From the NCBI RefSeq assembly GCF_009914755.1, contig NC_060931.1: a DNA stretch of 64,000 nt; one strand, given 5' to 3'. Each line of letters starts with the position of its first letter. Position 1 is the first letter of the stretch. The notes beneath the pieces were generated by a model. It was not told where the DNA came from and ran no database searches. It saw only the letters and a program-made list of their open reading frames with translations. Below are positions 7,520-10,270 of the stretch, piece after piece. The stretch comes from the human T2T-CHM13v2.0 reference genome, Homo sapiens. A program made the translations under genes and the position numbers.

Positions 7520-9362
7520 TTAACTGTACAATGACATACAGAAGTTTATTCAGTTTATACAAGTAATTTCTCAGATTTATAAAGTAAAAAGCTAGACTGC
7601 CAGAGGAAAAATTCCTTACATTGATATCAAAATATCTTCTAGTCCCCATAAATCATCTGCAGTCACTTGATAGAAAAAATATCCACAACCATATAGGTCA
7701 TGCAGACTTTTAAAATGCTATTTGTATTCAGTTTGTTTCAAACTGAGCAAAACAGTGCAACTTTTACTTTTGTATACATTTCAAAATTATATTAATGTTC
7801 CTTCTCATTTCAACTCATCCCATTACCAATAAAACGGGAGTGAGATAAAAGGGGAGAAGATCCTTGACTGCTTCTCATTTTCCTTGAAATAAACTAATAA
7901 TTCATTACAATTTTAATAAGTCATTATAAGGATAATAAAAGCCTCAGACTTTTTAAAATAAAATTATATAGTAAATAAGTAAATAAGCATTCAAATGTTA
8001 GTAACCCAACAGGCCCTAATACAGCTTTCAGATAGTTTCATATTAACAGGCAAATATTAGCACAGAAAAGAAGTTTCCCAAGAGGGACTCATTTTAAACA
8101 TAAATCACAGCTTAAATTACTACTATACAGATTATACTGGGCAAAGACAGAAAGAATGAATGCTTTCCTCCGTTCATGAACTGTGTAAGGCTACGTTACA
8201 AAGTCAGATAATGGACTGTGAATCACCTACCATACCGATTAACCATGTTTATTTAAAGTTTTCTTAATATTAGACAATTTAATGGGGGTAGGAAAAAAGT
8301 AAACAACCATTTCGCTTCTTCTCTTCTTCTACTTTAGCCACATAAGCCAGTTGTAATGGATGATACAGGTTTCAGCTGCAATTTGTAAAATATTCCAAGA
8401 ACTGCCATAGTCCCAAGAACTAGAGAAAACTGCCACCCACAAATAACCTACCAAAGTAAATATAAATACAGTATGATTCTAATTTTCTTTCATACAATCC
8501 CAGACAACCCCAAATAACTTTATAAAAAAGGAATTTACAAAGCTATCAAAACTATTTAAAATATTTAAAGGCAGAGTGGTCAAATTTCCTTCAATCAGAC
8601 CAGAAATCATCACAAAAATTATGATCACAGTTACAAGCAGAATGAAAGGAATGTTTAAATTTAGGACAACCAACCCCATGTGACTTTTAAAAATGCAATA
8701 ATTTACTCAAATATACTGTAACTAGAAATGGCAAGAATACAGGAAGCAAAAATAAGCTTGCGAGTGAAATTTCTAGAAGCTCATGGAAACCATCCCATCC
8801 CATATTGCAAATGCAAAAGGAAAAACAGTTCTCATAGAATTAAGAGTACTCTGGTCATTGTTGTTCATTTGGTCCTGCAAGGTGTTAACCACCTTCACTT
8901 CCCATGTCACAAAATTAGCCACAAGAGGAGCAGGTGGATCTTGTTCATTATGAGGACTGGTTGGCTTTTCAGGTACGTCGGATCCTCTTCAATCAGGAGG
9001 TCTCAGTAGGAACAAGACCACTGCAGTCACCAGCCAGGCCATCAAGATCATAGTAGCGCTGATGCCATTATCATCACAGGGTCCTGGTCATTCTTGCAAG
9101 CATCTGTCTCTGTGCAGCAGAGTTGGGGCTGCCACAACAGACTGGTCAGCCTTCTCATCGCATATTCATGAGAACATATTCATAGGGATCAAGCTCACTT
9201 TCTGCCATGATTACCCAGCTTGATTTTACTTGACTGTTTAAATACTTCTGGAGGCTGGGAAGTCCAAGATCAGGGAACTGGCAGATCTGGTGTCTGAAGA
9301 GGACTTGCTGTCTGGTTCATAGATGGTGCCTTCTCACCGTGTCCTCATAGAGTGGAAGGGGC
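7520..9362 (-). pseudogene. Processed pseudogene of SMIM14 (C4orf34) with LTR-derived first exon, CDS remnant and ~1.4 kb 3' UTR
   Basis: Minus strand 9208->8915 reads [93 protein letters not shown]. This is colinear with SMIM14 as I recall it ([99 protein letters not shown]). It is intronless with frameshifts and 2 stops. Minus-strand AATAAA at 7550-7545, eroded poly(A) at ~7516-7521, degenerate TSD 7504-7519 / 9363-9379. Confidence 0.93.
9244..9362 (-). mobile_element. MLT1A-type MaLR LTR segment (TSS to splice donor) forming the 5' exon of the retrocopy
   Basis: Minus strand GCCCCTTCCACTCTATGAGGACACGGTGAGAAGGCACCATCTATGAACCAG...CTGATCTTGGACTTCCCAGCCTCCAGAA aligns by eye to ~15795-15924 of the in-window MLT1A. 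It lacks both LTR termini. Confidence 0.85.
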
Positions 9363-10270
9363 TGTCTTTTTTATATTTTAGATATATCTTCTCTATGTAA
9401 CATATTGATGAAAAATTTATTTTAATCCCAACTGATAGCCTGTGTTTAGATGGGCATAATTAGTCTATGGTTATTCACTGCGACTGAGGACATTTTGAGC
9501 TTATTTCATGACCTTACAGTCTATACGCCATGCCTTTGTTTCACCCCCTACCTGCTCATCTGCTCTCTCTTTTTTTTTTTTTTTTGCCTTCCATTGCATT
9601 ATCTTATTTCCCTTCCCTTTCTTTTACTGATATGGCAAATATACATTCTATTCTAATTGTGTTGTTTACATTTACAATTTTAACAAAATACCTAATTTTA
9701 TGTTTTTCCATAAAACTTGAAAGTTGATCATCCTTCTTTCCTTCTCCAAAACAAGATACATACTTAAGCATGTGTAACTTTCTCCAAGATTTACATTTGC
9801 AGAATCTGTTATTGTTGTCTACTCTTTTAGACATACCTTATTTAAAATCCTAAATATAGTTCCTACAATTGTTTGTAGTTTGAGCTTATTGAGCTCTATC
9901 AATATACTTCTTTGCTTAAAATATTTGATTTCCAATCTTTCCTTCTTGTTGAAGTTAATCTTTTGAAGTAGTTCTGTGTAGGGGAGAGCACTCAGTCTTT
10001 ATAAGATTGAGTTCAGAAAGTGGCTGTGTATTTTAGTTGGGCAGTTATTTTCTTTCAACACTTTTATACTGTGATTGCTACTGACATTTATTGTTTTTGA
10101 AGATAAAAATAGCCTGACACTTTTTTTCATTCTTTGGTTGCCTTTAAGCTTGGTCTTTATTATTGATGTACAGTTTCATTCTTACCCTGTTTGGCACATG
10201 TTATGCTTTTGCCAGTCTGTTAATTCAAGTCTTTAGTTCTGGAAAATTCTTTACCAGAATATATTTGAAC
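9363..10270 (-). mobile_element. Old L1M fragment, right part
   Basis: Resumes the L1M interrupted at 7519. Also contains gttgggcagttattttctttcaacactttt and tttagttctggaaaattct (antisense ORF1 region). Confidence 0.6.

What the first reader, a model, noticed from the sequence alone, without database searches (positions are those of the whole stretch)
8915..9379. Retrocopy records an MLT1A-LTR-initiated, LTR-spliced chimeric SMIM14 mRNA
Seen: the SMIM14 retrocopy is fused at its 5' end to a sense-oriented 119-bp MLT1A piece lacking both LTR termini. LTR piece plus retrocopy sit together inside one interrupted L1M, between a degenerate TSD (tgcctctttatgtttt 7504-7519 / tgtcttttttatatttt 9363-9379). 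Aligned to the in-window MLT1A, the piece starts ~28-29 nt after the TATAA (15766), the expected TSS distance. It stops at CCAGAA(G)T, the position of the MaLR splice donor (ccagaact|gtgag), 35 nt before the ATG. Known: MaLR LTRs supply promoter plus first exon plus donor for chimeric transcripts in oocytes and early embryos, and heritable retrocopies arise in the germline or early embryo. Inference: this is a full-length cDNA fossil of an LTR-driven germline SMIM14 isoform, which may still exist or may be extinct.
Basis: partly seen in the sequence, partly recalled or inferred. Interest (0 to 1): 0.85.

Follow-up and report, generated by a model that had tools for sequence, protein, structure and literature searches.

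The report
Retrocopy preserving an LTR-started SMIM14 mRNA
A dead, intron-less copy of the human SMIM14 gene on chromosome 7 still carries, as its first 119 bases, the promoter-proximal part of an ancient MLT1A retroelement LTR joined exactly at a SMIM14 exon boundary, so it is a fossil of an old LTR-driven SMIM14 messenger RNA.

Summary
Window 7522-9243 (minus strand) is a fully spliced, decayed SMIM14 retrocopy. Window 9244-9362 is a sense 119-nt MLT1A LTR segment.

- **Exon boundary:** in the parent gene (chr4), the ATG exon starts right after an acceptor AG, 35 nt before the ATG. This is exactly where the LTR segment meets SMIM14 sequence in the retrocopy.
- **Candidate source LTR:** one sense MLT1A lies between the CpG-island promoter and that exon. 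It has TATAAAA and an intact GT donor. Its stretch from 28 nt after the TATA to the donor is 119 nt, the same length as the retrocopy segment.

In other copies the segment start falls 27-29 nt after TATAA (22 of 26 copies that keep the motif). Its end falls at the family's usual CCAGAACT|GT donor.

The third prediction, private shared variants, fails: 1 shared minority state against 11 in each copy alone. That LTR is therefore the likely source, not a proven one.

The flanking duplication is supported only when its position is fixed. I could not firmly show the L1 host.

Verdict: a real and tidy case that combines two known phenomena, LTR-initiated chimeric transcripts and retrocopies as transcript fossils. 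Present-day expression and cross-species dating could not be tested here.

The parts
9363..9379 (-). 5' copy of the target-site duplication (A-rich), abutting the start of the LTR piece
   Evidence: Sequence. Position-fixed comparison with 7504-7519: 13 matches with one gap, reached by 17 of 5641 A-rich 17-mers. The free local test was not significant.
9244..9362 (-). 119-nt sense MLT1A LTR segment running from the expected transcription start to the LTR splice donor. It is the LTR-derived first exon of the retrocopied mRNA.
   Evidence: 39 of 39 non-self rows are MLT1A-like copies (81-86% identity). The start equivalent lies 27-29 nt after TATAA in 22 of the 26 copies that keep TATAA. The end aligns to CCAGAACT|GT, read exactly by 22 of 62 copies.
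9209..9243 (-). 35-nt 5'UTR part of SMIM14 exon 2. Its first base is the first base after the parental acceptor AG.
   Evidence: Parent reads ...CCTCCTAG|ATTTAAACAG at C4:39574840. These 35 nt are identical between the retrocopy and the parent (alignment).
8915..9208 (-). Decayed SMIM14 coding region (exons 2-5 spliced). The frame is broken from codon 13 on and contains many stops.
   Evidence: Alignment to the joined parental exons: p-distance 0.139, K2P 0.158 over 331 sites, including a 4-nt gap. Translation shows a stop at codon 18.
7522..8914 (-). SMIM14 3'UTR equivalent, ending at the parental poly(A) site. AATAAA is at 7550-7545.
   Evidence: Blocks at 83%, 73% and 81% identity to C4:39521818-39519751. 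Similarity to the parent stops 22-23 nt after AATAAA. Two sense Alus of the parental last exon (308 and 300 nt) are absent.
7504..7521 (-). Short A-run merging into the 3' copy of the target-site duplication (7504-7519)
7348..7503. Old interspersed repeat forming the left flank. I recall it resembling the antisense L1 endonuclease-coding region, but this is not shown by any search.
   Evidence: 14 genome matches. Relatives in the window at 33045-33161 and 45083-44965. Protein-level routes gave nothing.
9380..9470 (.). Right flank, weakly colinear with the continuation of the left-flank repeat
   Evidence: Colinear placement in 3 of 7 related copies. No match by blastn or nhmmer.

Best explanation
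An MLT1A solo-type LTR lying in sense orientation in intron 1 of SMIM14 acted as an alternative promoter. Transcription began about 28 nt downstream of the LTR's TATA box and ran 119 nt to the LTR's own splice donor. That LTR exon was then spliced to the normal acceptor of SMIM14 exon 2, skipping the canonical CpG-island exon 1. The fully processed, polyadenylated chimeric mRNA was reverse-transcribed and inserted by the L1 machinery into an old repeat on what is now chr7. It was copied to its 5' end, or within a few bases of it, in a cell lineage that reaches the germline, and has since decayed.

Shown: the anatomy of the retrocopy, the coincidence of both junction sides with splice sites, the position of the piece's start relative to the TATA box, and the presence of a suitable LTR in the parent locus.

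Inferred: that this extant LTR (C4:39596807-39596689 as exon, TATA at 39596835) is the actual source, that the 5' end is the true cap site, and that expression was in germline or early embryo. My odds: about 0.85 that the template was an LTR-initiated spliced mRNA, and about 0.65 that the source is the extant intron-1 copy. The confidence given for this entry refers to the first, broader claim.
For: 1. The retrocopy joins LTR sequence to SMIM14 exactly at the first base of exon 2. The parent has a polypyrimidine tract and AG directly before it.
2. The LTR part ends at CCAGAAGT, aligned to CCAGAACT|GT. That string is the commonest reading (22 of 62 copies), and 21 of 62 copies keep the stricter donor pattern ending in GTRAG or GCAAG. 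Franke 2017 (PMC5538554, passages read) states that MaLR LTRs carry a splice donor near the 3' end and no acceptor.
3. The LTR part starts 28 nt after the T of TATAA in the intron-1 copy. Among the 26 of 62 copies with an exact TATAA, the distance is 28 nt in 14, 27 in 5 and 29 in 3.
4. Exactly one full sense match to the piece lies in the 110-kb locus, between the CpG island (39608001-39609000) and exon 2. It has an intact TATAAAA and GT donor, and its start-to-donor stretch is also 119 nt.
5. That copy is row 23 of 40 scored among 1715 candidates genome-wide. By my arithmetic, the expected number of the 39 non-self rows falling in sense in that 33-kb interval is about 2e-4. The reverse search puts the piece at row 28 of 40 among 2076 candidates.
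6. All downstream junctions are GT-AG spliced. The copy ends at the parental poly(A) site with an A-run. A position-fixed TSD brackets LTR piece and retrocopy together.
7. MLT1A LTRs do start spliced transcripts in primate oocytes today, for example ZC3H12C (Bogutz 2019, PMC6908575, passage read).
Against: - No private shared variants. The piece and the intron-1 LTR share 1 minority state, against 11 in each alone. That LTR ranks only 23rd of 62 by identity, and 11th to 20th by shared rare states depending on the threshold. An unrelated chr5 copy shares 5.
- The last two bases of the piece (GT) differ from that LTR (CC). One of the two also differs from the commonest family reading.
- MLT1A segments are common: one lies elsewhere in this 64-kb window. 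From the counts, I put the chance of a sense copy in 33 kb at somewhere between 0.01 and 0.27.
- Single-host-repeat continuity is weak.
- No transcript, CAGE or cross-species data could be consulted.
- SMIM14 was absent from the held supplements of two embryo and oocyte papers, and appeared only as SMIM14-DT in a third, whose file was cut.
Confidence: 0.8

Rival explanations
1. The template was an LTR-initiated, LTR-spliced SMIM14 mRNA, but the LTR that drove it is not the extant intron-1 copy. It would be another MLT1A that has since been deleted or decayed beyond recognition, or, far less likely, a trans-spliced LTR exon from another locus. This rival disputes only the named source, so it overlaps with the broader claim scored in the best explanation.
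For: No private variants link the piece to the intron-1 copy (1 shared minority state). Several unrelated copies are closer to the piece, up to 86% against 82%. The junction dinucleotide differs.
Against: Only one full sense match exists in the 110 kb searched, and it is in the right interval with intact TATA and donor. If retroposition closely followed LTR insertion, few shared private variants are expected. The piece and that LTR each carry 12 minority columns, which fits equal age.
Confidence: 0.17
2. The LTR exon was an internal cassette exon of a transcript begun at the canonical promoter. The retrocopy is 5'-truncated by chance at the place that looks like the LTR start site.
For: L1-made retrocopies are often 5'-truncated. 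No call can prove that the 5' end is a cap site.
Against: No AG acceptor precedes the start equivalent in the intron-1 copy (TG precedes it). MaLR LTRs are reported to lack acceptors. Truncation would have to fall by chance within 1-2 nt of the usual TATA-to-start distance.
Confidence: 0.04
3. The L1 reverse transcriptase switched templates from a SMIM14 mRNA to an unrelated MLT1A RNA during retroposition, giving a bipartite chimeric retrocopy.
For: Such chimeras are known (recalled). LTR-linked template switching is reviewed in PMC5470649 (passages read). The retrocopy dates to about the time MLT1A copies were young.
Against: The switch would have to leave SMIM14 exactly at the first base of exon 2, although canonical mRNA continues into exon 1. 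It would also have to enter the LTR RNA exactly at its splice donor. The copy has an L1-type 3' end and no LTR sequence on the 3' side.
Confidence: 0.03
4. The two parts are independent. A 119-nt MLT1A fragment already lay at the target, and a 5'-truncated SMIM14 retrocopy landed next to it.
For: The free TSD test is not significant. Host-repeat continuity is weak.
Against: This needs four coincidences: same strand, direct abutment, truncation exactly at an exon start, and a fragment trimmed exactly to start site and donor. The end of the LTR piece shows no TSD-like match to the 3' flank (score 4 against 8). The position-fixed TSD brackets both parts.
Confidence: 0.02

Closest known systems
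LTR-initiated transcripts (LITs) from MaLR/ERVL LTRs in mammalian oocytes and early embryos (Franke 2017, PMC5538554; Bogutz 2019, PMC6908575: ZC3H12C from an MLT1A in human and macaque oocytes)
   Same: The LTR supplies the TATA promoter, the first exon and its own splice donor, and splices into the acceptor of a downstream genic exon from tens of kb away.
   Different: Those cases are seen as RNA in living cells. Here the transcript is known only as a DNA copy made tens of millions of years ago. Its tissue and present-day existence are unknown.
Processed pseudogenes used as fossils of past transcripts (Shemesh et al. 2006, seen only in a reference list, content recalled; miRNA-host retrocopies, PMC7692494, title and abstract only)
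   Same: A retrocopy preserves an isoform structure (splice pattern, ends) of its parent at the time of retroposition.
   Different: The preserved feature here is a transposon-derived alternative promoter exon, with start and donor at nucleotide resolution. My searches found no paper naming such a case for SMIM14. I did not search exhaustively for the general idea.
'Pseudogene recycling' by ERVL LTRs (Franke 2017, passages read)
   Same: An ERVL/MaLR LTR sits directly 5' of processed-pseudogene sequence.
   Different: In recycling, LTR and pseudogene meet at the DNA level and the LTR then transcribes the pseudogene. Here they were joined as RNA by splicing before retroposition. The LTR part lacks its promoter, so it cannot drive the copy.
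Template-switch chimeric retrocopies and LTR-mediated retroposition (review PMC5470649, passages read)
   Same: A bipartite retrocopy with retroelement sequence at one end.
   Different: Here the junctions fall on splice sites rather than at arbitrary or microhomology points. LTR sequence is on the 5' side only. The 3' end is at the poly(A) site with an A-rich TSD, typical of L1.

Membership tests
L1-mediated processed pseudogene (retrocopy) | Colinear with the parental exons, introns removed at GT-AG boundaries | tested here: met
   Exons 2-5 are joined. Each parental boundary shows AG before and GT after.
L1-mediated processed pseudogene (retrocopy) | Ends at the parental poly(A) site with an A tail | tested here: met
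   Similarity stops 22-23 nt after AATAAA. A 6-nt A-run follows and merges with the TSD. The tail is very short.
L1-mediated processed pseudogene (retrocopy) | Flanking target-site duplication | tested here: inconclusive
   The position-fixed test is reached by 17 of 5641 A-rich 17-mers. The free local test is not significant, with 1781 of 2000 shuffles reaching it.
LTR-initiated chimeric gene transcript (MaLR promoter plus first exon plus donor) | 5' end at the LTR's TATA-directed start | tested here: met
   28 nt after TATAA in the intron-1 copy, and 27-29 nt in 22 of the 26 copies that keep TATAA. That this is a cap site is an inference.
LTR-initiated chimeric gene transcript (MaLR promoter plus first exon plus donor) | LTR part ends at the LTR splice donor and is joined to a genic acceptor | tested here: met
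   CCAGAAGT in the piece against CCAGAACT|GT in the copies, joined to the first base after the exon-2 AG. There is a 1-2 nt uncertainty from two mismatches.
LTR-initiated chimeric gene transcript (MaLR promoter plus first exon plus donor) | A sense LTR of that family lies upstream of the acceptor exon in the parent locus | tested here: met
   C4:39596835 (TATA) to 39596688 (GT), 21.8 kb upstream of exon 2. It is the only full match in 110 kb.
LTR-initiated chimeric gene transcript (MaLR promoter plus first exon plus donor) | The LTR exon carries variants specific to that genomic LTR | tested here: not met
   1 shared minority state, and identity rank 23 of 62. This is compatible with retroposition soon after LTR insertion, but it does not identify the source.
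LTR-initiated chimeric gene transcript (MaLR promoter plus first exon plus donor) | RNA evidence for the junction | not testable with these tools
   No transcript data are held. SMIM14 was absent from the held supplements of PMC10616205 and PMC6102241, and appeared only as SMIM14-DT in PMC12999487, whose file was cut.
Template-switch chimeric retrocopy | Junction at an arbitrary or microhomology position, not at splice sites | tested here: not met
   Both sides of the junction coincide with splice sites.
LTR-mediated retroposition | Retrocopy flanked by LTR-element sequence on both sides, with no L1-type 3' end | tested here: not met
   LTR sequence is on the 5' side only. The 3' end is at the poly(A) site with an A-run and an A-rich duplication.

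The most novel reading that the evidence does not exclude
The MLT1A still sitting in SMIM14 intron 1 became a germline or early-embryo promoter almost as soon as it inserted. On this reading the retrocopy is a nucleotide-resolution 'ancient 5'-RACE' of it, recording start site, 119-nt exon and donor use. The same LTR, with its TATA and GT donor still intact, may still start an unannotated SMIM14 isoform in primate oocytes or embryos. If so, mining retrocopies for LTR start-to-donor segments at their 5' ends would give a general way to date when individual LTR promoters were co-opted.
Probability: 0.3. Interest if true: 0.6.

Novelty: new member of a known kind. Interest (0 to 1): 0.45.

Why it matters
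LTR promoters shape oocyte and early-embryo transcriptomes, but their past activity is normally invisible because RNA does not fossilise. This retrocopy is direct physical evidence that an MLT1A LTR promoter, start site and splice donor were used to make a spliced host-gene mRNA. The cell lineage involved was heritable. The event predates two Alu insertions in the parent gene, at a divergence (K2P about 0.16-0.19) similar to that of the LTR copies themselves. It gives a concrete junction to look for in oocyte, zygote and testis RNA. It also suggests a genome-wide search for further fossils of this kind. The retrocopy itself is a dead pseudogene with no sign of function.

Tried and rejected
**Private-variant test.** I aligned the piece with the intron-1 LTR, 60 other MLT1A copies and the in-window copy. 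The intron-1 LTR does not stand out, with 0-1 shared rare states. No consensus of the LTR was built. Only the frequencies of the two copies' own bases were counted.

**Reciprocal best hit.** Neither sequence is the other's best genome hit: rows 23 and 28 of 40.

**L1 host continuity**
- blastn of both flanks against 13 left-flank relatives found no adjacent right-flank match.
- A genome search with the right flank gave 2 matches, one of them itself.
- Smith-Waterman against shuffles showed nothing above chance.
- nhmmer found nothing for the right flank.
- Flank translations with X at stops, searched against PDB and Pfam, gave no L1 match.
- A genome search with the in-window relative at 44650-45100 gave only short hits.
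- Only the register test gave weak support.
- My impression that the flanks are antisense L1 endonuclease-coding sequence is recalled, not tested.

**Free TSD alignment.** Not significant.

**Literature**
- 0 papers contain both SMIM14 and MLT1A.
- 3 papers contain SMIM14 and 'retrotransposon', 2 listed, both unrelated.
- The loose six-term search was uninformative.
- Shemesh 2006 is not held.
- Supplements. One file was cut when stored, so absence there is not conclusive.

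Full report
**What is in the window**

Read on the minus strand, window 9379 to 7504 contains, in order:
- an A-rich 17-mer (9379-9363);
- 119 nt of LTR-like sequence (9362-9244);
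- 35 nt of 5'UTR (9243-9209);
- an ATG (9208-9206) opening a broken reading frame;
- a long 3'UTR-like stretch with AATAAA at 7550-7545;
- a short A-run, and an A-rich 16-mer (7519-7504) that resembles the first one.

The window's own genome could be searched. The stretch 9243-7522 matches chromosome 4 (C4) in ordered blocks on one strand:
- 39574840-39574728;
- a 46-nt block at 39542119-39542074;
- 39526232-39526090;
- 39521818-39519751.

After refining the ends, every parental block is bounded by AG upstream and GT downstream. The joined blocks read as a 99-residue ORF. The 47 residues of the third block hit Pfam DUF2615 above its cut-off (30.4 bits against 23.4).

The only tool support is a supplement row placing SMIM14-DT at chr4:39.65 Mb in hg38.

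The copy is dead. It has a 4-nt gap at codon 13 and a stop at codon 18. It ends where the parent's similarity ends, 22-23 nt after AATAAA.

**The LTR piece**

With 9244-9362 as query, all 39 non-self rows scored (of 1715 first-look candidates) are dispersed copies of one repeat, at 81-86% identity over about 115 nt. No repeat library was available.

I fetched 60 of these copies and compared them without building any consensus.
- **Start.** In the 26 of 62 copies that keep an exact TATAA within 50 nt upstream, the base equivalent to the first base of the piece lies 28 nt after the T of TATAA in 14 copies. It lies 27 nt after in 5, 29 in 3, 25-26 in 3 and 14 in 1. That is the usual TATA-to-start distance, from general knowledge of Pol II promoters.
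- **End.** The commonest reading at the 3' end is CCAGAACT followed by GT (22 of 62 copies exactly), usually as GTGAG or GTAAG. 21 of 62 fit my stricter donor pattern. The piece ends CCAGAAGT.

Franke et al. 2017 (PMC5538554, passages read) state that MaLR LTRs carry a splice donor near the 3' end of the LTR and no acceptor.

**The junction against the parent gene**

In the parent, the ATG exon begins ...TTCCTTCCTCCTAG|ATTTAAACAG..., 35 nt before the ATG. In the retrocopy the same ATTTAAACAG follows directly on CCAGAAGT. The 35 nt are identical between copy and parent.

So the LTR part stops at an LTR donor and the SMIM14 part starts at an exon acceptor, with at most 2 nt of uncertainty. Canonical SMIM14 mRNA would continue upstream into a first exon. 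The only CpG island in the stretch scanned (C4:39575001-39630000) is at 39608001-39609000. None of that sequence is in the retrocopy.

A junction that sits on two splice sites is what splicing produces. Template switching, or two independent insertions, would produce it only by a very unlikely coincidence.

**A candidate source LTR**

A sensitive blastn of the retrocopy against C4:39520001-39630000 found exactly one full-length match to the piece, at 39596806-39596691. It is on the gene's strand. There was also a 43-nt partial match in intron 2.

That copy reads TATAAAA (T at 39596835). The start equivalent is at 39596807, 28 nt later. It ends ...CCAGAACC|GTGAGAAGTAAAT, with GT at 39596688-87. 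Its start-to-donor stretch is 119 nt, the same as the piece. It lies 21.8 kb upstream of exon 2 and about 11-12 kb downstream of the CpG island, which is inside intron 1 if the island marks exon 1.

It is row 23 of the 40 scored genome hits. By my arithmetic, about 2e-4 of the 39 non-self rows would be expected to fall in sense orientation in that 33-kb interval. A less flattering measure is the density of such segments in general. It runs from at least 1715 per genome up to one per 64 kb, as in this window. That gives a chance of roughly 0.01-0.27 for any sense copy in the interval, before requiring an intact TATA and donor.

**What does not fit**

- In the 63-row alignment the piece has 12 columns where its base is in the minority (below 30% of other copies).
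- The intron-1 copy also has 12, and they share one.
- By identity to the piece, the intron-1 copy ranks 23rd of 62. By shared rare states it ranks 11th to 20th, depending on the threshold.
- The reverse genome search puts the piece at row 28 of 40.
- The last two bases differ: GT in the piece, CC in the LTR, CT in most copies.

Equal private loads with almost nothing shared fit retroposition soon after the LTR inserted. The distances are compatible with this:
- piece against LTR: K2P 0.215 over 119 sites, both sides neutral;
- retrocopy against parent: 0.158 over 5'UTR and CDS, and 0.192 over the 3'UTR.

The same data fit equally well a source LTR that is no longer there. I therefore treat the extant LTR as the probable source (about 0.65), not a demonstrated one.

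**One insertion event?**

A free local alignment of the two flanks is no better than shuffles. If the duplication is required to abut both ends, as a TSD must, the result is stronger. The 17-mer and 16-mer give 13 matches with one gap. Only 4 of 20000 random and 17 of 5641 A-rich 17-mers from the window reach this.

The end of the LTR piece shows no such match to the 3' flank. This argues against a TSD around the SMIM14 part alone.

The claim that both flanks belong to one interrupted L1M could be supported only weakly. In 3 of 7 relatives of the left flank, the right flank aligns at the colinear register (offsets 0, -1, +7). Scores were reached by 4 of 230, 35 of 231 and 0 of 213 null windows. 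In the other 4 it does not. All other routes failed.

**Age**

Two sense Alu elements in the parent's last exon (308 nt at 39520877-39520570 and 300 nt at 39520243-39519944) are cleanly absent from the retrocopy. The retrocopy therefore predates both. Together with 14-19% divergence, this points to an old event, early primate or before. I could not date it properly without other genomes or a repeat library.

**Comparison with what is known**

Both ingredients are established.
- MaLR/ERVL LTRs act as promoters with their own first exon and donor in oocytes and embryos. An MLT1A starts a spliced transcript into ZC3H12C in human and macaque oocytes (PMC6908575, passage read).
- Retrocopies have been used as fossils of past transcripts. 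Shemesh 2006 I saw only in a reference list, and the paper is not held. For PMC7692494 I saw title and abstract only.
- Franke's 'pseudogene recycling' differs. There the LTR and the pseudogene meet as DNA.

No held paper mentions SMIM14 together with MLT1A (0 papers). The two listed papers containing SMIM14 and 'retrotransposon' are unrelated (3 hold both terms, 2 listed).

I class this as a new member of a known kind. It is a clean, well-resolved example, of moderate interest, whose main value is the testable junction and the idea of screening for more.

**Limits**

- No transcript data, no other mammalian genomes and no repeat annotation were available.
- Supplements of bioRxiv papers were closed, and one PMC supplement was cut when stored. 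An existing listing of this LTR-SMIM14 junction could have been missed.

Noticed in passing
L054 (G000:C5:172600798-172600914, + strand): This unrelated chr5 MLT1A copy shares 5 minority states with the retrocopy's LTR piece, including the CCAGAAGT ending. That is more than any other of the 62 copies. By my rough estimate it is about a 0.2 chance after multiple testing, so probably coincidence or a small subfamily. The copy continues into normal LTR sequence after the donor.
   Followed up: partly
Parent locus, G000:C4:39520877-39520570 and 39520243-39519944 (minus strand): Two sense Alu elements (308 and 300 nt, 84% alike) sit in the last exon / 3'UTR region of the parent gene. They are absent from the retrocopy, giving a relative date. 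Whether current SMIM14 mRNAs include them was not checked.
   Followed up: partly
L015 (G000:C15:29628577-29628739): A 174-nt stretch on chr15 matches the SMIM14 3'UTR (C4:39521258-39521086) at 86%, with nothing else of the gene around it in the 3-kb locus. It may be a fragment of a second, heavily truncated retrocopy or a small repeat embedded in the UTR.
   Followed up: partly
window 33045-33161 (+) and 45083-44965 (-): Two further old copies of the repeat that forms the left flank of the retrocopy (64-65% identity). They served as references for the colinearity test. The family was not identified by any tool.
   Followed up: partly
window 9347-9333 (minus strand, inside the LTR piece): The LTR-derived leader contains an ATG followed four codons later by TGA, a minimal upstream ORF ahead of the SMIM14 ATG. 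The intron-1 LTR lacks this ATG. Its significance is unknown.
   Followed up: no
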